This document shows positions 7,721 through 64,000 of a stretch of 64,000 bases of DNA, in pieces; position 1 is the stretch's first letter, and the number at the start of each line of letters is the position of its first letter. The notes beneath the pieces are model-generated. The model made no database searches. It was given only the letters and a program-made list of their open reading frames with translations, and was not told the origin of the DNA. The stretch comes from Candidatus Moranbacteria bacterium UBA2282 (GTDB lineage Bacteria > Patescibacteriota > Minisyncoccia > Moranbacterales > UBA2206). The stretch covers positions 85,995 through 149,994 of the forward strand of contig DDWQ01000011.1 in the NCBI GenBank assembly GCA_002345745.1. Direction: 5' to 3'. The position numbers were made by a program, and so were the translations under genes.

Positions 7721-9262
7721 ATGTCAAATACTATCGCCAAATCAGCCCTCTGGGTTACCATTTCCGAGATACTCTTTAATCTATCTGGATTCATTATCCA
7801 CAGCGTTCTGGGACGCGTTTTAGGGCCTGCAGACTATGGCCGCTATGGCCTAATTGTGACTTTGACCACGATGGTTATCGTACTCATCGGCAATGGCATT
7901 CCGACCGCTATGGCTAAATATATCAGTGAGATTTTTGAAACTGATCCACGGATGGTTTTGCAAATCAAAAAGCAAGCTATCAAATTGCAAATGATTATCG
8001 TTGGTGCCATCACAGTTATTTTCTATCTTTCCGCCGGACTAATTTCTAAAGCATTGGGAGATCCAACTCTGGCGCCACTCTTCCGTTTTTCAACCTTAAT
8101 CATCCCCGCTTTCGCCGCCGCATCTTTTTATTTTTCCTACTACACTGGTCTGCATAAATTTAATACTCAAGCCACACTCAAAACAATTCGCTCAGTGATG
8201 CGTATCGGCTTTGTCATTGGTATGGCTATCCTGTTTGGACTCAAAGGCTCTCTCTCTGGCTACATCATCGCGCCATTTTCTGTTTTCGCAATTGCCTTTC
8301 TGATTGATAAATTCAAAATTTCAAAAGAATTAAAATCCCACATCGCCGTAAAGACGCAAAATATTGCGTCTCTACCGAAGGAAACATCCTTTGATTGGAA
8401 AAAATTAGTCAATTATGGTTGGCAGATAGTGGTTTTTTTCCTGGCCTACGAACTACTCATCAGTATTGATTTATATATGGTCAAAGCCATTTTGCACGAC
8501 GATGTTTTAACTGGAATCTACAACGCCTCACTCACCGTCGGTCGCATTCCCTACTACATCTTCTATGCTATGACCGTCTTTCTTCTGCCAATGATGTCAA
8601 AATCAACTGCACAAAATAATCACAGTGAGACAACTAGAATCCTTGCTCAAGCACTGCGTATCATTTTAATTTTACTAGTGCCAATGATAATTCTGCTCTC
8701 AATTTTTTCTTTGCCAACTTTGGAACTGCTCTATGGTCAAAAATATTTAGCAGGAGCTGTGCCAATGTCAATTTTGGTTTTTGGCGTCGGGTTCCTCACT
8801 CTTTTCTATGTCTTGAGTTTTGCAATGAATGGTGCTGGCAAAACTAAACTTGTGATGTGGATTGCCTCGATTGGACTCGCAATAAACTCAACTTTAAATT
8901 ATTTTTTCATCCAAAAATACGGCATTCTTGGTTCAGCTATTGCCACTTCCGTTGCTTCGTTTGTCATAATGATCATTATGCTCTGTTATTTGCACCGTGA
9001 TTTCGGCGTTGCCTACAAAATCAGAAGTGTTTCATCTGTAGCATTGGCTGGACTTGGCATCTATATTTTTTCACTCATCATCCCATTGGATAAAAAATTC
9101 TTTATCATTGAATCAATCATTCTTTTGGGAGTCTATTTCGGTTCGCTTTGGCTTCTGCGGGAAATCAAAAAGGAGGACCTCACGATCCTCCAAAACCTTA
9201 TTCGCCGTAAGAAAGTCGTGGAAGTGGAACAAGAACTTTCCGGCAATGAACCCAGCGCCTAA
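7721..9262 (+). CDS. Polysaccharide biosynthesis protein, Wzx/MOP-superfamily flippase
   Basis: 513 aa, about 14 TM helices, typical Wzx/MurJ-like topology and length. Confidence 0.7.
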   Translation: MSNTIAKSALWVTISEILFNLSGFIIHSVLGRVLGPADYGRYGLIVTLTTMVIVLIGNGIPTAMAKYISEIFETDPRMVLQIKKQAIKLQMIIVGAITVIFYLSAGLISKALGDPTLAPLFRFSTLIIPAFAAASFYFSYYTGLHKFNTQATLKTIRSVMRIGFVIGMAILFGLKGSLSGYIIAPFSVFAIAFLIDKFKISKELKSHIAVKTQNIASLPKETSFDWKKLVNYGWQIVVFFLAYELLISIDLYMVKAILHDDVLTGIYNASLTVGRIPYYIFYAMTVFLLPMMSKSTAQNNHSETTRILAQALRIILILLVPMIILLSIFSLPTLELLYGQKYLAGAVPMSILVFGVGFLTLFYVLSFAMNGAGKTKLVMWIASIGLAINSTLNYFFIQKYGILGSAIATSVASFVIMIIMLCYLHRDFGVAYKIRSVSSVALAGLGIYIFSLIIPLDKKFFIIESIILLGVYFGSLWLLREIKKEDLTILQNLIRRKKVVEVEQELSGNEPSA

Positions 9263-10854
9263 TTTCTTAGAGATTTAATTAACCCAAAGCGACCGAAGGA
9301 TTTAAAATCTAAAACATTAGAATTTTTTTCTAGTGTTTTTATTTTATTGTCTTTTGATTCAGTGCTAATCAAGGTAAAGACGATGTTACCAGCGACGCTA
9401 TTTTTCTTATTTAATGGTTGCAAATGCACCCCTTGCTTTTCTGTCAAATAGATTAAACCCTTGGATGCCTTAAATAAATATTGACTGTTTCCATCCAACA
9501 AAACATCTTGCGATAAGTTATTTTGTGCAGTAATGTAGTTTGCCATCATTGCAAGCTCCCCCAGATATACATTATCAAATCCATCCATATTGCTACTTTC
9601 AGTATAATTATTCAAAGCAATAAAATTATCTCTAACCGTCCAGAGATTTAAAGCAATTAAAATTATCATAATAGTTAGCGTAATAACAACCTCATTGTTT
9701 TTAAATTTCTGTATTAAAAATTCTAGCCATAAACCTAAAAATATAAATGGTAAAAAGGTGATAATCAGAAAGTATCGCAATGAAAGTTCATAAGCGACAG
9801 GAGTCATAAAGAAAGCCATAAGCCCCGCATAGCTCAAAATTAGCCCTAGGAAGCGTTTTCTATCTTCACTAGTCTCTTTTACTAATCGCCAAATTCCCAG
9901 GCCTAGACCACCCAAAAACAACAGTCCGCCCAACAAAATATCCACAATATGACCTGCTGTTTTAACTGGCAAAAAGTTGCACTGATCCGATTCTCCTACC
10001 GATGAAATTGTAAAGGTCGTGGCAGTCATAAAGCATTCCCCCACGCGTCCAGCCTTCAGCAATAAATTTTCATCTTCTTTCTTAGTTGTCACACCGCTGA
10101 AAAGAGCTTTGACATTGTCACCGCCTGTTTTTGCTTCATTATATAACTGCGGAATATTTAAAAAAATTGAAACAACAAAAACAATCATAAAACTCTTCCA
10201 GAGATTATTTTTCTTAGGCACCTCAATTCTCAGATAAACAAAATACGCAATAGTCAGCAGTGGCATCACCACGAGCAAAAAAGTGTGCAACTGCACCCCG
10301 ACGCCTACAGCGACACCAGCCATCACTGACCAGAAGATTCGATGCTTGCCTTGAGATTCGGCTAATTGCAAAAGTGCATAGAGAAAAAGCATCGTCCAAA
10401 AAGGCGTTGAATTTGGATTCCAAGCAAAATGTGCATACTTAATGGCGTAAAAAGAAACGGCAAAGAGTGCAGTCAGTGCCAGTGCTAATTTTTCACTGAA
10501 ATATTTTTTTAGGAAAAAAAACAAAAGTGGAATAGATAGCAAAGAAAAGAATAAGTCTGGGTATGCTAATTTGTCAGGATAATTGCCAAATATTTTTCCA
10601 GCAATTATTTGAAATTCATAGAAAATTGGACCCAGACGAAAATCAGTTCCACCCGCTTTTGGTCCCAAAAGTGGCCAACCAGTTTCTCCATTGATAACTT
10701 CACCAACAAGCGTTGCATCTCGTGCTTGATCAGCGTTGAACCGCAAGCCATCGTGAAAATTGTAAGTACGCAAAAAAATTCCAACTAAAATTATTGCGAG
10801 GAGAATCCAGGTCTCTTTTTTTATATTTTTAACTATGTTTATCATTTTAACCAT
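9259..10854 (-). CDS. GT-C fold membrane glycosyltransferase (ArnT/PMT-like, GT39/GT83-type), paralog 1
   Basis: N-terminal loop RFNADQARDA...PLLGPKAGG resembles the DE-x-RYA/KPPL motifs of ArnT. It is polytopic and has paralogs at 11792..13444 and 16082..17836. Confidence 0.7.
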   Translation of the reverse strand: MVKMINIVKNIKKETWILLAIILVGIFLRTYNFHDGLRFNADQARDATLVGEVINGETGWPLLGPKAGGTDFRLGPIFYEFQIIAGKIFGNYPDKLAYPDLFFSLLSIPLLFFFLKKYFSEKLALALTALFAVSFYAIKYAHFAWNPNSTPFWTMLFLYALLQLAESQGKHRIFWSVMAGVAVGVGVQLHTFLLVVMPLLTIAYFVYLRIEVPKKNNLWKSFMIVFVVSIFLNIPQLYNEAKTGGDNVKALFSGVTTKKEDENLLLKAGRVGECFMTATTFTISSVGESDQCNFLPVKTAGHIVDILLGGLLFLGGLGLGIWRLVKETSEDRKRFLGLILSYAGLMAFFMTPVAYELSLRYFLIITFLPFIFLGLWLEFLIQKFKNNEVVITLTIMIILIALNLWTVRDNFIALNNYTESSNMDGFDNVYLGELAMMANYITAQNNLSQDVLLDGNSQYLFKASKGLIYLTEKQGVHLQPLNKKNSVAGNIVFTLISTESKDNKIKTLEKNSNVLDFKSFGRFGLIKSLRN

Positions 10855-11786
10855 AAATTTAATTTACCAATTTTCTTTTCAATCTCAAACTTTTGCGCAT
10901 ATTCACCGTGTTTTTCAATAATTATTTTCGCTTTTTTAGTACATTTATTATATTTAGCTTCCAATGATACAAAGTTTACCAAGGCCTGAGATGTCGCTAT
11001 GTTTCCAACAATAAGATAGTTTATTCCTTCAACATTTTCAAACCTATATCCTGGCTCATGTCCTGATATGACAAGCACTAAATTTTTATATTTTTTAAAA
11101 AAATTATGAACATCTATGCCATTGGAGAGATTTTTAAAATTAGAAACAAGTTCTCCATCAATCTTAGATGGAATTGAACTATGATGAGAAAAAATAATAG
11201 TCGGCTTTTCTGTATTAAGCACATCTTCAAGCCACTCAAATTCTGCCTTACTTACATATCCATTCACATAATAATCTGGACCAAAATCAGAACCATCTAT
11301 TTTGAAATTAGTATCCATTAATACAAATCTCCAATCACCTAAATCTATATAACTATGATTATCATTCATCGCAAGCATATCTCTTAACTCTTCTTTATTT
11401 AGATCACGAAGATCATGATTTCCAAAAACATATTCTCTCCTTGTTTCTAGTTTTGAGAAAATTGCATTTATCTTTTCAAACTGCTCAATAGTAGTTTTTT
11501 TCTTAGACAATGAACTCTCCACCATATCTCCACCCATAATCACAATTTCTGGATTAAATTTTTCGTTAAAAAAAGTCACAGCCTTTTCTAATGCATCAGG
11601 TGAATCCTTGGGTAGTTTATTGCCAACATTGTTTTTATACCCATATTCTAAATCAGTCACAAAACCAAATTTTAAATCAGTTTCAGTATTAATTTTATTC
11701 CAATATGTAGATCCCGCTAGAATAATAATACTTACGCAAATATACAATAAAATTTTATTAGATTCATTATTTGAATATTTTTTCAT
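10842..11786 (-). CDS. Membrane-anchored metallophosphoesterase (calcineurin-like), copy 1
   Basis: N-terminal TM anchor; motifs GGDMVE, GNHDLR, SGHEPG. Overlaps the upstream GT-C gene by 13 bp. Confidence 0.7.
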   Translation of the reverse strand: MKKYSNNESNKILLYICVSIIILAGSTYWNKINTETDLKFGFVTDLEYGYKNNVGNKLPKDSPDALEKAVTFFNEKFNPEIVIMGGDMVESSLSKKKTTIEQFEKINAIFSKLETRREYVFGNHDLRDLNKEELRDMLAMNDNHSYIDLGDWRFVLMDTNFKIDGSDFGPDYYVNGYVSKAEFEWLEDVLNTEKPTIIFSHHSSIPSKIDGELVSNFKNLSNGIDVHNFFKKYKNLVLVISGHEPGYRFENVEGINYLIVGNIATSQALVNFVSLEAKYNKCTKKAKIIIEKHGEYAQKFEIEKKIGKLNLWLK

Positions 11787-38259: not shown

Positions 38260-39315
38260 TTAACCAAAATAATTCTTAATCTGTTTATATTTTTTATATA
38301 AAAAATTTGGAATTTTCCAACGCAGAGAATTGACGACGGAGGACAATTGTTTTTCTTTTTGAATAATTTCATCTTTTAGATGTTGTACTTTTTCTTCCCC
38401 AGCCTCTATTTCTCGCTCATTAGCTTGTGTTTTTTGCTTTTCATTCAATACCTCTTTAGTTTTTATTTCAATACTAATTTTATTTTCTATATTTATTTTA
38501 TTCATCATATCCATCGCATTTTTTATCGTTTTCAAGAAAAGATTATCATCAATCAAGCTTTTAGCTATTTCTAAATCCTTTAATTCATTGCTTTTCTTAA
38601 TAAAATATATTTTTCTATAAGATGGGTCTTGATTATCAAAAGGAAAAACCTCTGTATTATAAAAATAATTAAATTTCTGGTGATTACTATGGAGTTCATC
38701 TGACATATTTTCTTCAATCAAAAATTCCATCCCTAATAATAATTGCCACAAAAACAATCTGTTATTTTGTAGCTTCTGAAATGATACTGCCTTTTCTTCT
38801 AACAAATTTTCAAATTCAATCATTTCTGGCAAACCATTTTCTATATGCTCCTTGAGCCAAATATGATCCTCTCCATTATGTAGCATTTTATAATTTTCAT
38901 TTGCATTTATTTCTGCTTGCGCAACCGCTGGAGAGTAGAAAGGTGCCACTAGGACAACTCCTAATTTTGCAACTCGCAAGTTTTCCTCTAAAAAATTTTT
39001 TCTTTTTTCTTTTGGTATATGTTCAAAAACATCAGTAGAAACAACCCAGTCAAAACTTTCATCAACCAATGGCATATTGCAGCCATCCCCCTTGATAAAA
39101 TTTTCGTCCTCAGAATCAAGAAACGGATCGAGATAAAAGACATCATCCTCTGGAAAAAATTTTTTCATCCAGTTACCCCTACCACCCACATCAAGAATTT
39201 TTAATTTTTCATTACCTTTGCGATTTTTTTCTACAATATTCTGAATAGGTGCAAATCGTCCATACAAATGGAAAACCATTTCTTTTTTAAATTGTTCTTC
39301 TGCTATTTTTTCCAT
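38260..39315 (-). CDS. Class I SAM-dependent methyltransferase with a C-terminal coiled-coil region
   Basis: LDVGGRGNWM (motif I), DESFDWVVSTDVFEHIP, LRVAKLGVVLV. The C-terminal roughly 80 aa are K/E-rich and predicted helical. Confidence 0.7.
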   Translation of the reverse strand: MEKIAEEQFKKEMVFHLYGRFAPIQNIVEKNRKGNEKLKILDVGGRGNWMKKFFPEDDVFYLDPFLDSEDENFIKGDGCNMPLVDESFDWVVSTDVFEHIPKEKRKNFLEENLRVAKLGVVLVAPFYSPAVAQAEINANENYKMLHNGEDHIWLKEHIENGLPEMIEFENLLEEKAVSFQKLQNNRLFLWQLLLGMEFLIEENMSDELHSNHQKFNYFYNTEVFPFDNQDPSYRKIYFIKKSNELKDLEIAKSLIDDNLFLKTIKNAMDMMNKINIENKISIEIKTKEVLNEKQKTQANEREIEAGEEKVQHLKDEIIQKEKQLSSVVNSLRWKIPNFLYKKYKQIKNYFG

Positions 39316-40601
39316 AATGTTTCTATTTTTATTAATCCATTTTGGTTCTCTTCTTGAGAAATTATTTTAAATCCATAAAACCTATCCTTAAAATCAATTG
39401 GAGTTACACAATCCCAATTAAATAATGCTGCGGTAAATCTATAACTACCCGTGAAAAATTTATTTTCAATAATTACAAAATCAAAAGAGCCAAGACCTTC
39501 GATATAATCTATTATAAATTTAGAAGTTTTTGTATTTGGACCGGAAATATGAATTCCGTCTTGTGTATAAATAGCAACACCGAAGACAGGTTTTTCTATT
39601 TTCTTTTTTGCATTGTAATATATCCGCGCTACAATATCATCCCCTGTCTCAAAAACATTCTTTGCTTTCCCGTCCTTATCCAAAAATTCAACCTTAGTTA
39701 TTTCTATGACTTTACTTTTTCTTTCTTCGCTATCTTCTTTATTGATATTTTTTTTACCATCTTCTTCCTTTTTTTGCTCATCATACATCCTCTTTTCCTC
39801 ATCCGACATATTCTGATAGACATATTCATTGCCAACTTCTTCCGCTTTGCCAATTTTAACAATTTTTCCATTACGAAGCAACATTGCCCGATCGCAATAT
39901 CTTTGCACTACGGCGATATCATGAGTGACAATTATTACTGTTCTCCCCATACCTCGATATCTATTAAATTCTTCCAGACATTTCGATTGAAAATTTGAAT
40001 CTCCCACCGCCAAAACCTCATCCATAAGTAGTATATCACGATTAGCGTGAATGGACACCGAAAAAGCCAACCTCACCTGCATGCCGGAAGAATAGTTTTT
40101 CAATTTTTGGTCAATGAAGCGTTCCAGTTCAGAAAATTTCACAATGGAATCGAATTTCTTGTCGATTTGCTTTTTGGTCATCCCCAGCACTGTGGCGTTC
40201 AAATAGACATTATCCCGTCCGGAAAGCTCGGGATTGAAACCGATGCCCAACTCCAAAAAGGGTGAAATCATGCCATCAATCTTTACCCCGTGAAATTCCG
40301 CCTTAGGCGGACGGGCTCCGCCCGATTTCACTGGGGTGCCTTTCTTGGGTTTATCCGCCTGATAAATCCCCGCCAAAACCTTCAACAGCGTCGATTTTCC
40401 GCTGCCATTCCGACCAATGATGCCAAAAAATTCGCCCTTTTTCACCTCAAAAGAAACATCGTCTAATGCTTTGAATTCTTCGTAACCCCTCTTTTTACTA
40501 AAAACCGAAATAGCAGCTCCTCTTAGCGAGGAGATTTTTTCATGTGGTATTTTAAACGTCTTACTGACGTTTTTTACACTAATTGCGATGTCTTTATCCA
40601 T
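39303..40601 (-). CDS. wzt: ABC transporter ATP-binding protein of Wzt type, with a C-terminal carbohydrate-binding domain
   Basis: Walker A GRNGSGKST, signature SSGMQ, Walker B LLMDEVLAVGD. A roughly 170-aa C-terminal beta-rich extension. A roughly 20-aa GC-rich insertion lies after Walker A. Confidence 0.8.
   Translation of the reverse strand: MDKDIAISVKNVSKTFKIPHEKISSLRGAAISVFSKKRGYEEFKALDDVSFEVKKGEFFGIIGRNGSGKSTLLKVLAGIYQADKPKKGTPVKSGGARPPKAEFHGVKIDGMISPFLELGIGFNPELSGRDNVYLNATVLGMTKKQIDKKFDSIVKFSELERFIDQKLKNYSSGMQVRLAFSVSIHANRDILLMDEVLAVGDSNFQSKCLEEFNRYRGMGRTVIIVTHDIAVVQRYCDRAMLLRNGKIVKIGKAEEVGNEYVYQNMSDEEKRMYDEQKKEEDGKKNINKEDSEERKSKVIEITKVEFLDKDGKAKNVFETGDDIVARIYYNAKKKIEKPVFGVAIYTQDGIHISGPNTKTSKFIIDYIEGLGSFDFVIIENKFFTGSYRFTAALFNWDCVTPIDFKDRFYGFKIISQEENQNGLIKIETLWKK
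40287..40336. repeat. GC-rich nested-hairpin element inserted in frame in the wzt ATPase domain
   Basis: ccccgtgaaat tccgcc tta ggcgga cgggc tcc gcccg atttcactgggg. It encodes the extra KPKKGTPVKSGGARPPKAEF segment. Confidence 0.55.
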
Positions 40602-58491: not shown

Positions 58492-59646
58492 CTAGTTCTT
58501 CAAATATTCCAGAGTCTCTTGCGCGCATTTTTCCCAAGAGAATTCTTTTAATTGCTCACGCCCTTTTGCAATCAACTCAATTTGCAGATCTTTAGAAATC
58601 AAAACTTGTTCTATTTGTGTACTGAGTTGTGCTGTATTCTGTGCATCAAAATATAGTGCACCTTCTCCACCAATTTCTCGCAAAGAAGAATTATCCGCTG
58701 TTATCAAAGGCACACCAGCGGCATATGCCTCTAGGATTGTGATGCCAAAGCCCTCATAAAGTGAAGGATAGACAAATACACTAGCCCCCCGAAACAAACA
58801 CCCTACATCGCAAAATTTGAGCCTGCCAGGCATTATGATGTCTTTAGAATAGACGCTATTTCTAGCCTTTTTTTCTATAGATTCCGCGAGCCATGCCTTT
58901 TCTCCCGCTAAAACCAATTTGAGAGCGCAAAAGGAGCTAAGCTCCCAAGCTTGGGAGCTTAGCTCCTTTTGCTTCCGGCTTTTTAATAAGTCAAATGCCT
59001 CAATCAATTTTTCAATATTTTTTCTCGGCTGTAACGCACCAGAATACAAAATATACTCTCCTACTATTCCAAGTTTATTTTTCAATTCTTGCTCTTTGCC
59101 ATGATCACGTGCTTGAGAAAAAACATCTGGACTAAAGCCATGATAGATGACCTGGATTTTATTGGCGTCAATTTCCGGATAAAATTTTATGATGTCATGC
59201 TTGGTCGCCTGTGAAATGGCAATAATTTTGTCTGCCTGCCTAATTGAGTAGTCCGCAAATAAATTTAGTTTGCGTAAATCTTTTGGAGGAAAATATTGTG
59301 GAAAATATTTAAAAGCCAAGTCATGAATAGTCACCACTGTTTTCAAATTTTTTCGACGTAGATATGGCAGAGCCGCCATCGGCATCCACAAAACAGTTGG
59401 TTTTTCTTTCCACACTTCCCATGCAAATCTAATTTGCGTCCACAGGATTGGAAAAGACTTTTGAATAATTTTATAATTTGAAAATTCCGGCGGAGTGAGT
59501 TCCGGATTAAATTTACTTTTGTGATAAATTAAAAACTCGCTCTGTAAATCTAGCTTGCCAAAGTGTTTTAGCAAGTTAAAAATATAGACGCGAGTTCCAT
59601 CAATGCGCTCGTGATCAAGGTCAGCTGCAGAAATTGCAATTTTCAT
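58492..59646 (-). CDS. GT4-family glycosyltransferase carrying an in-frame 46-bp perfect palindrome at the inter-domain linker
   Basis: YPSLYEGFGITILEAYAAGVPLITAD motif. Inserted peptide KELSSQAWELSSF. Confidence 0.8.
   Translation of the reverse strand: MKIAISAADLDHERIDGTRVYIFNLLKHFGKLDLQSEFLIYHKSKFNPELTPPEFSNYKIIQKSFPILWTQIRFAWEVWKEKPTVLWMPMAALPYLRRKNLKTVVTIHDLAFKYFPQYFPPKDLRKLNLFADYSIRQADKIIAISQATKHDIIKFYPEIDANKIQVIYHGFSPDVFSQARDHGKEQELKNKLGIVGEYILYSGALQPRKNIEKLIEAFDLLKSRKQKELSSQAWELSSFCALKLVLAGEKAWLAESIEKKARNSVYSKDIIMPGRLKFCDVGCLFRGASVFVYPSLYEGFGITILEAYAAGVPLITADNSSLREIGGEGALYFDAQNTAQLSTQIEQVLISKDLQIELIAKGREQLKEFSWEKCAQETLEYLKN
58927..58972. repeat. Perfect 46-bp palindrome inside the GT4 CDS
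   Basis: GCAAAAGGAGCTAAGCTCCCAAG|CTTGGGAGCTTAGCTCCTTTTGC. Confidence 0.9.
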
Positions 59647-62714: not shown

Positions 62715-62795
62715 CTCAAAGGTTAAGCCTTTGCATCGCTTAAACTCCGTAAAGGCTTAACCTTGGAAACTCTCAGTGAAAGTAATAAAGTAATT
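62715..62795. other. Tandem roughly 30-bp units, each with a small hairpin, between the rmlD 3' end and the glyA start
   Basis: aaactcc tcaaaggttaagcctttg ... aaactcc gtaaaggcttaaccttgg aaactct. Confidence 0.35.
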
Positions 62796-62837: not shown

Positions 62838-63857
62838 TTATGATTTTTTCAAATATTCTTTCAAGGCATCTTTATAACTTCGCAACGGATTGAGTTTGGT
62901 GTTAAGTAACACTGAATAATATGGTCGCTTAGCCGGACGGGGAAATTCCGCTCCATCCACAGGAATGACTTTCGTCTTCAATTTCGCCTGCTGATATAAT
63001 TCTAGAACAGCTTCGTACCAAGTGCAAGGGTCGCCATTTACAATATGATAGATGCCAAATGGCTTCTCGGCTTCAACAATTTCCTTAGTTTTCTTCGCCA
63101 AATCAGGTGCATAAGTGAAACAACTCGTTTCTTCATCCACCGCCTTTACCATTTTATTCTTTTTACCTGCTTCCAGCATCACATCAAAAAAACTGCGTTT
63201 GGCATTTTCTGCCTGAGCTGGTTTTCCAAAAATTTTAGATGGTCGAATAATATAAAAATTCTTAGTATTTTTCTGCACTTCTTTTTCACCCAGCACTTTA
63301 GACTTGCCATAGTTAGAAATCGGATTAGTTTTTGCCTCTTCATCAAAGCCAATTTGTGGCCAGCCTCGCATCGACGAGCGGTCGTCTCCGCGAGTCGAGG
63401 CGGGCACGAAATCAGTATGCAGACTGCAAGAACCGCAAGAATGTGTGCATCCAGTTGGCTCAGGAATTTCAGGCTCGCCGTCAAAAACATAATCAGAAGA
63501 ATAATTCACAAAAACAGCCTTGATTTTCTTTGCCACTTTGGCAAGATACCCCGGTGCTTTGCCATTTAGTTTTTTCGCCAACTCATATTCTTTTTTATCT
63601 TCTTCGCATTTATCCACGGCGTTATAACCCGTAGCATTGATAATAATAGCTGGTTTAAGTTTTGTCACTTTAGCAATTACTTGCTTTTCAGAAGTGATGT
63701 CAATGTCATCTCGATCCCACGCCACAACTTCATAGGCTGTGTCTTTTTTAAAAGCTATTACTAGTTCTTGACCCAACATTCCCCGCGCACCGATTATTAA
63801 AACTTTTTTCTTCTCCGAAGGTTGAGCCTTCGGAAGACTAATTTTTTTATTCACCAT
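62838..63857 (-). CDS. rmlD: dTDP-4-dehydrorhamnose reductase with a roughly 35-aa GC-rich in-frame insertion
   Basis: VLIIGARGMLG, YSSDYVFDG, NPISNYGKSK (YxxxK). The start is taken at MVNKK (63857), where ATGGTGAATAA overlaps the rmlB stop. ORF track 62838..63917. Confidence 0.75.
   Translation of the reverse strand: MVNKKISLPKAQPSEKKKVLIIGARGMLGQELVIAFKKDTAYEVVAWDRDDIDITSEKQVIAKVTKLKPAIIINATGYNAVDKCEEDKKEYELAKKLNGKAPGYLAKVAKKIKAVFVNYSSDYVFDGEPEIPEPTGCTHSCGSCSLHTDFVPASTRGDDRSSMRGWPQIGFDEEAKTNPISNYGKSKVLGEKEVQKNTKNFYIIRPSKIFGKPAQAENAKRSFFDVMLEAGKKNKMVKAVDEETSCFTYAPDLAKKTKEIVEAEKPFGIYHIVNGDPCTWYEAVLELYQQAKLKTKVIPVDGAEFPRPAKRPYYSVLLNTKLNPLRSYKDALKEYLKKS
63364..63470. repeat. GC-rich structured insertion within rmlD (nested hairpins)
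   Basis: GCCTCGCatcGACGAgcggTCGTCtccGCGAGtCGAGGC ... tgcagactgca. It encodes PTGCTHSCGSCSLHTDFVPASTRGDDRSSMRGWP, which Salmonella RmlD lacks. Confidence 0.5.
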
Positions 63858-64000
63858 ATTGTTTTTTATAATAATTTTGATAATCCCCACTCTTGATATT
63901 TTTCCACCACGATTCATTGTTTTGAAACCAAGCTAACGTCTGAGCAATGCCTTCTTCAAAAGTCACTTGTGGTTCGAAACTCAGTTCATTTTTAATTTTT
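63853..64000 (-). CDS. rmlB: dTDP-glucose 4,6-dehydratase, C-terminal 49 codons (gene continues beyond the window)
   Basis: Minus-strand translation ...EEGIAQTLAWFQNNESWWKNIKSGDYQNYYKKQYGE* matches the RmlB C-terminus (WY.N..WW..vksG.Y). Confidence 0.6.

What the first reader, a model, noticed from the sequence alone, without database searches (positions are those of the whole stretch)
63364..63470. GC-rich structured block of about 100 bp in frame within rmlD, encoding a Cys-rich loop
Relative to Salmonella RmlD, this protein has about 35 extra residues between the YSSDYVFDG and NPISNYGKSK motifs: PTGCTHSCGSCSLHTDFVPASTRGDDRSSMRGWP. The DNA is strikingly GC-rich for this genome and folds into nested hairpins (GCCTCGC..GACGA-gcgg-TCGTC..GCGAG-t-CGAGGC). 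It is either a third in-frame selfish-element insertion or a lineage-specific metal-binding loop (C-x3-C-x2-C).
Basis: partly seen in the sequence, partly recalled or inferred. Interest (0 to 1): 0.55.

Follow-up and report, generated by a model that had tools for sequence, protein, structure and literature searches.

The report
45-bp coding hairpin element in rmlD
The GC-rich block in this sugar-reductase gene is two things side by side: a cysteine-rich loop conserved across the lineage, and a 45-base mobile DNA hairpin that sits in frame in many housekeeping genes of Moranbacteria and is always found next to a small GIY-YIG nuclease gene at tRNA genes.

Summary

**Cys-rich loop (window 63405-63476, minus strand).** It encodes EPEIPEPTGCTHSCGSCSLHTDFV. 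C137-x3-C141-x2-C144-x2-H147 is invariant in all 120 closest RmlD homologues. It is a conserved lineage feature and probably a Cys3His metal site.

**45-nt element (window 63360-63404).**
- It is an exact 45-nt, 73% GC imperfect palindrome, and this protein alone among the 120 carries it.
- It belongs to a sharply bounded family, here called E, with consensus CCCGCCTCGACTCGCGGAGACGACCGCTCGTCGACGCGAGGCGGG.
- I found at least 74 E sites in about 27 Moranbacteria/Parcubacteria genomes.
- Filled and empty orthologue pairs in SecA, PheT, UvrA, RecG, RecJ, TilS, GlmS, RmlB and RmlD show clean 45-nt insertions. There is no target-site duplication.
- Coding copies strongly favour one reading frame, PASTRGDDRSSTRGG.
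- AlphaFold gives pLDDT below 50 exactly over the insert.

**Two unexpected results.**
- E copies shared by diverged orthologues stay about 96% identical while the flanking DNA is about 65-74% identical.
- An E-type hairpin lies just upstream of a small GIY-YIG nuclease gene inside a broken tRNA 5' fragment in every such locus examined. This includes six loci fetched independently by protein identity.

**Verdict.** This is a solo, translated copy of a new RPE-like coding palindrome. GIY-YIG-linked mobilisation is inferred, not shown.

The parts
63360..63404 (-). Solo copy of the 45-nt palindromic element 'E'. Coding strand: CCCGCCTCGACTCGCGGAGACGACCGCTCGTCGATGCGAGGCTGG. It is read in frame as PASTRGDDRSSMRGW (RmlD residues 152-166).
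   Evidence: It is an exact 45-nt gap against the closest homologue's DNA (A1). It matches the family profile at E = 4e-14 over positions 1-45, with 2 differences from the consensus. pLDDT is below 50 at residues 153-166.
63405..63476 (-). Lineage-conserved Cys-rich loop EPEIPEPTGCTHSCGSCSLHTDFV (residues 128-151). Putative metal ligands are C137 (63447-63449), C141 (63435-63437), C144 (63426-63428) and H147 (63417-63419).
   Evidence: C137, C141, C144, L146 and H147 are invariant in the alignment, and the motif CxxxCxxCxLH is present in 120 of 120 homologues at 65-87% identity. The loop is absent from all solved RmlD structures and from most 50%-identity representatives.
62838..63857 (-). rmlD-family gene (dTDP-4-dehydrorhamnose reductase, 339 aa from MVNKK) that hosts both features.
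   Evidence: Pfam PF04321, PDB sequence hits and fold match. The same protein, P0001, was called in public assemblies. It sits in an rmlC-rmlB-rmlD ... NTP-transferase neighbourhood.
63847..64000 (-). 3' end of the upstream rmlB-type gene (dTDP-glucose 4,6-dehydratase). It overlaps the rmlD start by 11 nt and runs off the window.
   Evidence: The gene calls on L003/L004 for the same DNA are rmlB 9007-10011 and rmlD 10001-11020.

Best explanation
**Shown: two layers.**
- **Layer 1.** RmlD proteins of this Moranbacteria/Parcubacteria clade carry an extra loop of about 23 aa between strand beta5 (YSSDYVFDG) and the catalytic YGKSK helix. The loop holds an invariant C-x3-C-x2-C-x2-H motif.
- **Layer 2.** Directly after that loop, this genome alone has a 45-bp GC-rich imperfect palindrome. 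It is one copy of a dispersed element family ('E').
- E is exactly 45 nt with sharp ends (CCCGCCTCG...CGAGGCGGG).
- E inserts without target-site duplication and without a clear target motif.
- E contains no stop codon in any of the six frames.
- E is found inside intact housekeeping genes as a 15-aa addition.

**Inferred.**
- The rmlD copy is transcribed and translated as a disordered, hydrophilic surface loop. It is tolerated because it landed in an already expanded loop.
- The Cys3His motif binds a structural metal, most likely zinc.
- E is a non-autonomous mobile hairpin. Its partner is a small GIY-YIG nuclease cassette that sits in tRNA-Glu or tRNA-Leu genes.
- The nuclease either moves E or creates the breaks at which E is copied in.
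- Nuclease-triggered gene conversion keeps E copies nearly identical.

My confidence is about 0.9 that the hairpin is a solo copy of this repeat family and that the Cys loop is a separate conserved feature. It is about 0.35 for the GIY-YIG-driven mechanism.
For: **The rmlD copy**
- The indel is an exact 45 nt against the closest homologue, and deleting it restores a gap-free alignment.
- 119 of 120 homologues lack it but keep the Cys loop.

**The family**
- A stems-only pattern hit 63 loci in 596 Gb of genomes. 60 of them are Moranbacteria/Parcubacteria-type MAGs, with several loci per genome, and 3 are chance hits in GC-rich genomes.
- The consensus is sharply bounded at 45 nt.
- There are 74 distinct sites in the fetched loci and 18 more loci in metagenomes.

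**Mobility**
- Filled/empty orthologue pairs show clean 15-aa gaps in SecA, PheT, UvrA, RecG, RecJ, TilS, GlmS, RmlB and RmlD.
- The closest pairs are SecA at 95% and PheT at 91% nucleotide identity in the flanks.
- There is no target-site duplication and no flank palindromy.

**Translation**
- Among 35 independent sites inside ORFs, 20 are in frame F1 (PASTRGDDRSSTRGG) and 8-9 in frame R2. Chi-square p = 4e-9.
- The element length is 3 x 15 nt, and all six frames are open.
- pLDDT is below 50 exactly at residues 153-166 in a model whose mean pLDDT is 89.6.

**Nuclease link**
- 10 of 11 GIY-YIG motif hits in about 600 kb of loci lie within 110 nt of an E copy.
- The ORFs are PF01541.
- All six independent loci fetched through GIY-YIG homologues, not through E, carry an E-type hairpin 11-35 nt upstream of the ATG. 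In each it lies inside a tRNA 5' fragment, and five of the six have an intact tRNA-Glu right after the ORF (the sixth locus ends shortly after the ORF).
- L092 has two tandem units that begin with the hairpin.

**Homogenisation**
- E is 43/45 identical between RecG orthologues and between UvrA orthologues.
- The flanks of those pairs are 63-74% identical, with third codon positions at 40-54%.
Against: - No GIY-YIG gene, tRNA or second E copy lies in this 64-kb window, so the source genome's own partner is unseen.
- A module from the same metagenome (L088) cannot be assigned to this genome.
- E occurs in both orientations upstream of the nuclease gene. That fits an insertion hot spot as well as it fits a fixed terminal sequence.
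- GIY-YIG enzymes are not known to transpose hairpins.
- Nothing here shows cleavage, transcription or translation.
- All six frames being open is expected for 38% of shuffles of this composition, so it is not independent evidence of adaptation.
- The window copy has two substitutions that weaken its hairpin (-11.4 against -16.5 kcal/mol).
- Metal binding by the Cys loop is untested, and the loop is modelled at only pLDDT 62-71.
Confidence: 0.85

Rival explanations
1. E is not purely selfish. It is a maintained, host-useful element, comparable to long-lived REPINs. It might be a DNA or RNA hairpin bound by a host factor, or a flexible linker peptide. On this view the rmlD copy is kept by selection.
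For: - E is about 96% identical between orthologues whose neighbouring synonymous sites are near saturation.
- The same site is occupied in RecG, UvrA and UvrC orthologues at 65-77% protein identity.
- There is strong reading-frame bias.
Against: - Presence is patchy. Each host gene has close relatives without E that are clearly functional.
- Copies are scattered over unrelated genes and intergenic DNA.
- The rmlD copy is unique to one species-level lineage and its hairpin is degraded.
- Conservation is equally explained by gene conversion or by recurrent insertion.
Confidence: 0.2
2. E is mobilised by a different enzyme, not by the GIY-YIG protein. Candidates are a hairpin-specific HUH/Y1 transposase (RAYT or IS200/IS605-like) or host recombination. 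On this view the broken tRNA fragment upstream of the GIY-YIG gene is only a favoured or neutral landing site.
For: - Insertion without target-site duplication and a stem-loop substrate are typical of HUH single-strand transposition (established knowledge).
- E occurs in both orientations at the nuclease modules.
- Most E copies are far from any GIY-YIG gene.
Against: - No transposase-like ORF was noticed next to the E copies I inspected, but I did not screen the fetched loci systematically for transposases.
- IS200/IS605 elements need a fixed 4-5 nt target next to one end. None is seen.
- The association with the GIY-YIG modules is 12 of 12, at only two precise positions at the edges of the D loop. 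That is too regular for a passive landing site.
Confidence: 0.25
3. The whole extra segment of about 38 aa, hairpin part included, is one lineage-specific functional (metal-binding) loop of RmlD.
For: - The segment is contiguous and in frame.
- The Cys/His motif is invariant.
- Other RmlD clades also have Cys-rich loops at this position.
Against: - The 15-aa part is missing from 119 of 120 homologues, including ones at 82-87% identity.
- Its DNA is a copy of a repeat found in dozens of unrelated genes.
- It is predicted to be disordered.
Confidence: 0.03
4. The element is not translated. It is skipped by the ribosome, like the GC-cluster 'byp' elements of Magnusiomyces mitochondria, or it is removed from the mRNA.
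For: GC-rich hairpin inserts in the coding regions of an AT-rich genome are bypassed in one known system (reviewed in PMC8811140).
Against: - A fixed length of 45 = 3n, the absence of stops, and a strong bias to two of the six frames among internal coding copies are what selection on a translated peptide predicts. None of these would matter if the insert were skipped.
- No RNA family matches the region.
Confidence: 0.05
5. The block is an assembly or chimera artefact, or a one-off local template-switch (quasipalindrome) mutation.
For: It is a palindromic, compositionally foreign block in a metagenome-derived sequence.
Against: - The allele is identical in three independent assemblies.
- The same 45-mer occurs in about 27 other genomes, which rules out a local origin.
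Confidence: 0.01

Closest known systems
Rickettsia palindromic elements (RPE; Ogata et al. 2000, as reviewed in PMC10969869 and PMC3184786)
   Same: Both are palindromic repeats dispersed through a small genome. Both insert in frame into unrelated housekeeping genes without destroying them, and both add a peptide segment. The mobilising enzyme is unknown in both cases.
   Different: - RPEs are about 105-150 bp in ten families. E is exactly 45 bp.
- The phylum differs (Patescibacteria/CPR against Alphaproteobacteria), and I saw no reason to expect sequence homology.
- RPEs are reported to lose repeat identity with time (PMC6649704). E stays about 96% identical at orthologous sites while the flanks diverge.
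- E has a consistent nuclease-gene association.
GC clusters of yeast mitochondrial DNA, including the in-frame var1 insertions (PMC8811140)
   Same: Both are short GC-rich palindromes in a very AT-rich genome. Both are polymorphic in-frame insertions in a coding gene, and both have been linked to gene conversion.
   Different: - GC clusters are organellar and highly variable in sequence.
- They usually carry terminal AG/TAG repeats read as target duplications. E shows no target-site duplication.
- Some GC clusters are bypassed in translation.
REP/REPIN elements with their RAYT transposases (PMC3184786)
   Same: Both are GC-rich imperfect palindromes of similar size and present in many copies. 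Both have a single-copy nuclease-type gene flanked by the repeat as the presumed partner. Both show long-term sequence maintenance.
   Different: - REPs are extragenic by definition and often carry a GTAG head. Many E copies lie inside coding sequence.
- The associated gene here is a GIY-YIG nuclease (PF01541), not an HUH/Y1 enzyme.
- That gene is embedded in a tRNA gene.
Free-standing GIY-YIG homing endonuclease genes in tRNA gene regions (phage T4 SegB; recalled from memory, not checked here)
   Same: Both are small GIY-YIG ORFs lodged among or next to tRNA genes. Both have a duplicated target fragment, which suggests homing-type spread.
   Different: - The setting here is bacterial chromosomes of CPR organisms.
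- The cassette regenerates the tRNA.
- The cassette is always accompanied by the E hairpin, which also exists as dozens of solo copies elsewhere.
Canonical RmlD (Salmonella 1KBZ, Clostridium 1VL0)
   Same: The fold, the cofactor-binding N-terminus, the Ser/Tyr/Lys catalytic residues and the rml gene neighbourhood all match.
   Different: The beta5-alpha5 spacer is 57 aa here against 19 aa. It holds a conserved Cys3His motif plus the E-encoded 15 aa. No solved structure has either.

Membership tests
RmlD / dTDP-4-dehydrorhamnose reductase (PF04321) | Significant match to the family profile and to solved members | tested here: met
   PF04321 scores 214 bits against a cut-off of 27. 1VL0 matches at E = 1.3e-42. 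Foldseek gives target TM 0.94 and rmsd 1.4 A.
RmlD / dTDP-4-dehydrorhamnose reductase (PF04321) | Catalytic Ser/Thr...Tyr-x3-Lys of extended SDRs retained | tested here: met
   S120, Y183 and K187 are invariant in the 116-sequence alignment. They align to STDYVF / YGxTK of the solved enzymes.
RmlD / dTDP-4-dehydrorhamnose reductase (PF04321) | Genomic neighbourhood with other rml genes | tested here: met
   dTDP_sugar_isom (rmlC) and an rmlB-type dehydratase lie upstream. NTP_transferase genes lie downstream.
Rickettsia palindromic elements (RPE) | Palindromic repeat inserted in frame in unrelated protein genes | tested here: met
   39 copies lie in ORFs of at least 180 codons, including SecA, AtpA, UvrA, UvrC, RecG, RecJ, GlmS, TilS and PheT.
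Rickettsia palindromic elements (RPE) | Length of about 105-150 bp and membership of one of the RPE sequence families | tested here: not met
   The element is exactly 45 nt.
MITE | Target-site duplication flanking terminal inverted repeats | tested here: not met
   Removing the 45 nt restores gap-free alignment to empty sites. Direct repeats at the flanks are no more frequent than in shuffled pairings for 1-3 nt; identical 4-nt flanks occur at 2 of 50 sites against about 0.2 expected, which is too few to indicate a regular duplication.
MITE | Derived from an IS element with matching ends and a transposase | tested here: inconclusive
   I did not notice an IS-like parent near the E copies I examined. 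The only recurrent neighbour is a GIY-YIG ORF. Whole genomes were not searched.
REP/REPIN-RAYT | Extragenic location | tested here: not met
   More than half of the copies lie inside long ORFs.
REP/REPIN-RAYT | Associated RAYT (HUH/Y1) gene flanked by the repeats | not tested
   Only 8-kb flanks were available, and no systematic search for Y1 transposases was possible.
Yeast mitochondrial GC clusters | Terminal AG/TAG direct repeats read as a target duplication | tested here: not met
   No terminal direct repeats are present. The feature is as described in PMC8811140.
Translational bypass (byp) elements | Inserts that break the frame or carry stops and are skipped by the ribosome | tested here: not met
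   The length is 3n, all six frames are open, and coding copies are frame-biased. Translation itself is not testable here.
GIY-YIG homing-type cassette (as partner of E) | ORF with a GIY-YIG catalytic domain | tested here: met
   PF01541 matches at E = 6e-14 to 6e-12 for three module ORFs. This is in related loci, not in the window.
GIY-YIG homing-type cassette (as partner of E) | Consistent physical linkage between the nuclease gene and the element | tested here: met
   10 of 11 motif hits lie within 110 nt of E. All 6 independently fetched homologue loci carry an E-type hairpin upstream.
GIY-YIG homing-type cassette (as partner of E) | Nuclease cleaves E or its target and promotes copying | not testable with these tools
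   This needs biochemistry.
Structural Cys3His metal site | Four conserved ligand residues in a short loop | tested here: met
   C137, C141, C144 and H147 are invariant in 120 of 120 homologues, while the intervening residues vary.
Structural Cys3His metal site | Bound metal | not testable with these tools
   The AlphaFold loop confidence is only 62-71, and no coordinates were available to measure ligand geometry.

The most novel reading that the evidence does not exclude
E and the small GIY-YIG/tRNA cassette together form a previously undescribed two-part mobile system in CPR bacteria.
- A GIY-YIG nuclease housed in a self-repairing tRNA-Glu or tRNA-Leu insertion recognises a 45-nt hairpin.
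- It spreads that hairpin, without target-site duplication, into coding sequences across the genome.
- It keeps the copies homogeneous by break-induced gene conversion.

This would be a GIY-YIG analogue of the RAYT/REPIN partnership. It would also be the first candidate enzyme for 'coding palindromes' of the RPE type.
Probability: 0.3. Interest if true: 0.85.

Novelty: new variant of a known kind. Interest (0 to 1): 0.7.

Why it matters
- **A second lineage with coding palindromes.** Coding palindromic selfish DNA has essentially one classic bacterial example, Rickettsia RPEs, and how those move has never been explained. Here a much smaller, exactly 15-codon element does the same thing in ultra-small CPR genomes. 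It hits core proteins such as SecA, ATP synthase alpha and PheT.
- **A candidate enzyme.** E comes with a concrete candidate partner enzyme and a defined DNA substrate, which makes the mobilisation question testable in vitro.
- **A practical point for annotation.** Protein-family alignments and structure predictions for CPR organisms contain 15-aa PASTRGDDRSSTRGG-type inserts. These are mobile DNA, not lineage-specific functional motifs.
- **A separate question about RmlD.** The conserved Cys3His loop is an unstudied feature of an enzyme that is a drug target in other bacteria.

Tried and rejected
- **Second copy in the window.** blastn-short and a family HMM found only the rmlD copy.
- **Known RNA families.** Rfam gave nothing at gathering threshold over the window, nor at E <= 1 around the block. 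The window has no tRNA.
- **Phage origin.** There were 0 hits in viral contigs and only chance-level hits in phage genomes.
- **Empty allele with identical flanks in metagenomes.** None was found, so recent polymorphism within the species is untested.
- **Copy number in the source genome.** The genome is not among the species representatives hit. The rmlD copy itself was not returned by the metagenome scan. The copy number therefore stays unknown.
- **Target-site duplication, extension of the palindrome into the flanks, conserved target motif.** No regular duplication, flank palindromy or target motif was detected; identical 4-nt flanks occur at 2 of 50 sites against about 0.2 expected. There is only a weak preference for a purine at -1 and C/AA after the element.
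- **E inside functional tRNA genes.** ARAGORN on element-deleted junctions found no tRNA spanning a junction. The tRNA-like flanks turned out to be 5' fragments next to GIY-YIG genes.
- **Six open frames as a sign of adaptation.** Rejected as independent evidence, because 38% of same-composition shuffles share the property.
- **Transposase between paired copies.** Nothing relevant lay between them: YidD-like and CorA-like ORFs (named from their sequence, no family search run).
- **Literature.** No report of such elements in CPR, Patescibacteria or Moranbacteria is in the held library.
- **Geometry of the Cys loop.** This could not be measured because model coordinates are not exposed.
Full report
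**What is at the coordinates**

The minus-strand ORF 62838-63917 (most likely start MVNKK at 63857, 339 aa) is an RmlD-family reductase.
- PF04321 matches at E = 2.8e-63.
- The best solved relative is 1VL0 at E = 1.3e-42.
- The AlphaFold model has mean pLDDT 89.6 and superposes on 1VL0 with target-normalised TM 0.94 and rmsd 1.4 A.
- The gene lies in an rmlC-rmlB-rmlD ... nucleotidyl-transferase neighbourhood.

Every solved RmlD aligns in two stretches that skip residues of about 132-170. The window is 34.5% GC. The richest 100-nt window (60%) and the richest 45-nt window (73%, starting at 63358, 4.3 SD above the mean) of the whole 64 kb are both here. The quoted nested hairpin is present. Folding energy alone is unremarkable, with z between -1.3 and -2.1 against dinucleotide shuffles.

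**The block is two things**

I aligned the 120 closest homologues, which are Moranbacteria/Parcubacteria proteins at 65-87% identity.
- All of them share the loop PEIPEPxGCxHxCxxCxLHxxFxPQIGF. CxxxCxxCxLH is present in 120 of 120. C137, C141, C144, L146 and H147 are invariant, while the positions between them vary.
- Only the window protein has the next 15 residues, PASTRGDDRSSMRGW.

At the DNA level the difference from the nearest relative (82% aa identity) is one clean 45-nt gap. The empty site reads ...GTGCCC|CAGATC. The filled site reads ...GTG[CCCGCC...GGCTGG]CCACAA. The same filled allele occurs in ENA and JGI assemblies, so it is not an assembly artefact.

The GC excess belongs to the 45 nt at 63360-63404 (73%). 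The Cys-loop DNA at 63405-63476 is 49% GC. AlphaFold gives pLDDT below 50 exactly at residues 153-166, and 62-71 over the Cys loop.

**The Cys loop**

Among 150 representatives of RmlD clusters at 50% identity, the spacer between YVF and YGxxK is 19 aa in most. About eight representatives carry other Cys-rich loops at the same place, for example SCNHICHEC, GCCGGGCC and GCCGSGCxGC.

The Cys3His motif is therefore a conserved, clade-specific feature at a loop that has repeatedly acquired cysteine clusters. A structural metal site, probably zinc, is the natural inference but is untested. No solved RmlD has such a loop.

**The 45-mer is a dispersed element**

I scanned one genome per species with a pattern that fixes only the stems, CTCGCGNNGACGANNNNTCGTCNNNGCGAG. 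It returned 63 loci. Sixty are Moranbacteria, Parcubacteria or Patescibacteria-type MAGs from about 27 assemblies, with up to seven or more loci per genome. Three are unrelated chance hits in GC-rich genomes.

Aligned copies give a sharply bounded 45-nt consensus, CCCGCCTCGACTCGCGGAGACGACCGCTCGTCGACGCGAGGCGGG. The flanks revert at once to unrelated AT-rich sequence. A profile search finds 74 distinct sites in the fetched loci and only one in the window. A metagenome scan added 18 loci. No copies were found in viral contigs or phage genomes, and there is no Rfam match. I call the element E. The window copy differs from the consensus at two positions, which weakens its hairpin (-11.4 against -16.5 kcal/mol as DNA).

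**E is mobile and lands in genes**

Thirty-nine copies lie inside ORFs of at least 180 codons. By Pfam the hosts include ATP synthase alpha, GlmS, UvrA, UvrC, RecG, RecJ, a TilS-type PP-loop enzyme, SecA (two copies in one gene) and PheT.

Orthologues present in other fetched loci supply empty sites. In each case the protein alignment shows a clean 15-residue gap. Deleting exactly 45 nt restores gap-free nucleotide alignment.

| Host gene | Filled locus | Empty locus | Flank nt identity |
|---|---|---|---|
| SecA | L064 | L013 | 95% |
| PheT | L065 | L013 | 91% |
| RmlD | window | L001 | 87% |

UvrA, RecG, RecJ, TilS, GlmS and RmlB give further pairs.
- RecJ carries independent insertions two codons apart and in opposite orientations in two genomes.
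- RecG and GlmS orthologues each carry E at different positions.
- There is no target-site duplication, no extension of the palindrome into the flanks and no clear target motif. There is only a weak preference for a purine before the element and C/AA after it.
- Intergenic copies also exist.

**Evidence that coding copies are translated**

E is 15 codons long and has no stop in any of its six frames. The latter follows largely from composition: 38% of same-composition shuffles are also open in all six frames, against 0.7% of host 45-mers.

The frame distribution is more telling. Among 35 independent ORF sites, 20 are read as PASTRGDDRSSTRGG and 8-9 as PPRVDERSSxRVEAG. The remaining frames occur mostly within 30 codons of the ORF start, where the copy is probably upstream of the true start codon (chi-square p = 4e-9). 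Selection on a tolerated hydrophilic peptide explains this. RNA-level removal or ribosomal bypass, known for some mitochondrial GC clusters (PMC8811140), would not.

**E does not decay like neutral DNA**

Some orthologues share E at the same site.

| Gene | E identity | Flank nt identity | Third-position identity |
|---|---|---|---|
| RecG | 43/45 | 68-74% | 46-54% |
| UvrA | 43/45 | 63-65% | 40-50% |
| UvrC | 45/45 | 84-88% | 62-74% |

Either the same nucleotide position is hit repeatedly, or copies are kept alike by selection or gene conversion. RPEs, by contrast, are reported to lose repeat identity over time (PMC6649704).

**A recurrent neighbour: a GIY-YIG nuclease in a tRNA gene**

Several E copies had flanks that looked like the 5' half of a tRNA. 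A motif scan of all fetched loci, about 600 kb, found 11 small GIY-YIG ORFs. Ten of them lie within 110 nt of an E copy. Three that I tested are PF01541.

The architecture is constant:
1. A tRNA 5' fragment.
2. E, inserted at one of only two positions, the 5' or the 3' edge of the D loop (..CGTC|E|TAG.. or ..GGTYAG|E|GAC..).
3. 11-35 nt of spacer.
4. A GIY-YIG ORF of about 85 aa.
5. An intact tRNA-Glu (UUC or CUC), or once tRNA-Leu (UAG), which sometimes overlaps the ORF end by 21 nt.

As an independent test I searched for homologues of one nuclease (24 proteins) and fetched their contigs by protein identity. All six independent loci with DNA carry an E-type hairpin with the same termini in the same place.
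- L086 has a canonical 45-mer.
- L087, L089, L090 and L092 have 31-50-nt variants with different centres.
- L088 has nested copies.

L092 has two tandem units, each beginning with the hairpin and ending at tRNA position 21, followed by the intact tRNA. This defines the unit as E + tRNA(22-36)-like + ORF + tRNA(1-21). A GIY-YIG gene of another subfamily (L054) has neither E nor a tRNA. At least five genomes contain both a module and solo E copies.

**How it most likely works**

*Shown:* the rmlD hairpin is a solo copy of E, inserted precisely and in frame next to a conserved Cys3His loop.

*Inferred, high confidence:* it is translated as a disordered 15-aa surface loop with little effect on the enzyme.

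*Inferred, moderate to low confidence (about 0.35):* E is the non-autonomous partner of the GIY-YIG/tRNA cassette. There are two possibilities.
- The nuclease recognises the hairpin and moves it.
- Its double-strand breaks are repaired by copying E from other copies. This would explain three things at once: the lack of target duplication, the two precise positions at the nuclease's own doorstep, and the homogenisation of copies.

*Caveats:*
- Both orientations of E occur at the modules.
- GIY-YIG enzymes are not known to transpose hairpins.
- The window holds no module, no tRNA and no second copy.
- An HUH-type transposase or another enzyme remains a live alternative.

**Comparison with what is known**

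Functionally this is closest to Rickettsia palindromic elements (PMC10969869, PMC3184786). It differs in four ways: it is a third of their size, it belongs to another phylum, it does not decay, and it has a nuclease association.

It resembles yeast mitochondrial GC clusters in size and in GC contrast with the host genome (PMC8811140), but it lacks their terminal repeats. It resembles REP/RAYT in logic, but it is intragenic and linked to a different enzyme family. It fails the MITE criterion of a target-site duplication.

I found no report of such elements in CPR bacteria in the held literature. Absence from that library is not proof of novelty. I rate it a new variant of a known kind.

**Other palindromes in the window**

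The window also carries two other in-frame palindromes of different sequence.
- A 51-nt one lies in a Wzt-type ABC ATPase. Its encoded PVKSG...FHG peptide is patchily present among homologues and once occurs in two tandem copies.
- A perfect 46-nt one lies in a glycosyltransferase ORF.

A further family, TCTCCTTATAAAGGAGA encoding SPYKGEG, recurs in the related loci: inside the UvrA and UvrC ORFs and at three further places whose genes I did not identify. Coding palindromes thus look like a general trait of these genomes.

Noticed in passing
window 40279-40352 (minus-strand ORF 39303-40601): A 51-nt GC-rich palindrome, CCCCAGTGAAATCGGGCGGAGCCCGTCCGCCTAAGGCGGAATTTCACGGGG (DNA fold z = -6.9), lies in frame in a Wzt/TagH-type ABC ATPase and encodes ...PVKSGGARPPKAEFHG. 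Related peptides are present in only some of the 120 homologues at the same site, and one homologue (P0128) has two tandem copies. This is a different coding-palindrome family.
   Followed up: partly
window 58927-58972 (minus-strand ORF 58492-59646): A perfect 46-nt palindrome, GCAAAAGGAGCTAAGCTCCCAAG|CTTGGGAGCTTAGCTCCTTTTGC, lies inside a glycosyltransferase-type ORF. It is read in frame as KQKELSSQAWELSSFC. It is probably another in-frame palindromic insertion. Homologues were not checked.
   Followed up: no
window 62716-62767 and 63818-63830: The motif AAGGYTNARCCTT occurs three times, only around rmlD (0.66 expected). Two copies form a 17-nt inverted repeat in the rmlD-SHMT spacer. One lies inside the N-terminal extension of rmlD (SLPKAQPSEKK), which many homologues lack.
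   Followed up: partly
L039 560-1010, L043, L059, L063, L082, L084, L086-L092: Small GIY-YIG nuclease genes (about 85 aa, PF01541) are inserted in tRNA-Glu or tRNA-Leu genes. A duplicated tRNA 5' fragment lies upstream and an intact tRNA downstream. The ORF sometimes ends in the tRNA D loop (…LSSNG*). L092 carries two tandem units.
   Followed up: yes
L030/L038 (RecG), L014/L035 (UvrA), L048/L056 (UvrC): E copies at the same codon position in orthologues at 65-77% protein identity are 43-45/45 identical, although flanking third codon positions are about 40-74% identical. This implies recurrent same-site insertion or active homogenisation.
   Followed up: partly
L006 7248, L014 (rc) 7037, L015 1936, L048 (rc) 6773 and 7447: Another short palindrome, TCTCCTTATAAAGGAGA with GC-rich shoulders, is read as (P)SPYKGEG at five places in four loci. 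Two of them lie inside the UvrA (L014) and UvrC (L048) ORFs; the other three hosts were not identified, and one is followed closely by stop codons.
   Followed up: no
Proteins P0241, P0243, P0244, P0278, P0295, P0360 (RmlD representatives): Other RmlD clades carry different Cys-rich loops (SCNHICHEC, GCCGGGCC, GCCGSGCxGC...) at the same beta5-alpha5 position. The usual spacer there is 19 aa. This suggests repeated gain of cysteine clusters at this loop.
   Followed up: partly
L009 5540-5660 and 7080-7170; flanks of several intergenic E copies (L010, L015, L018, L031): Intergenic E copies are often embedded in AT-rich sequence with recurring TTCGTAA/ATTCGCATCG-like motifs. E may sit inside, or prefer, a larger intergenic repeat.
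   Followed up: no
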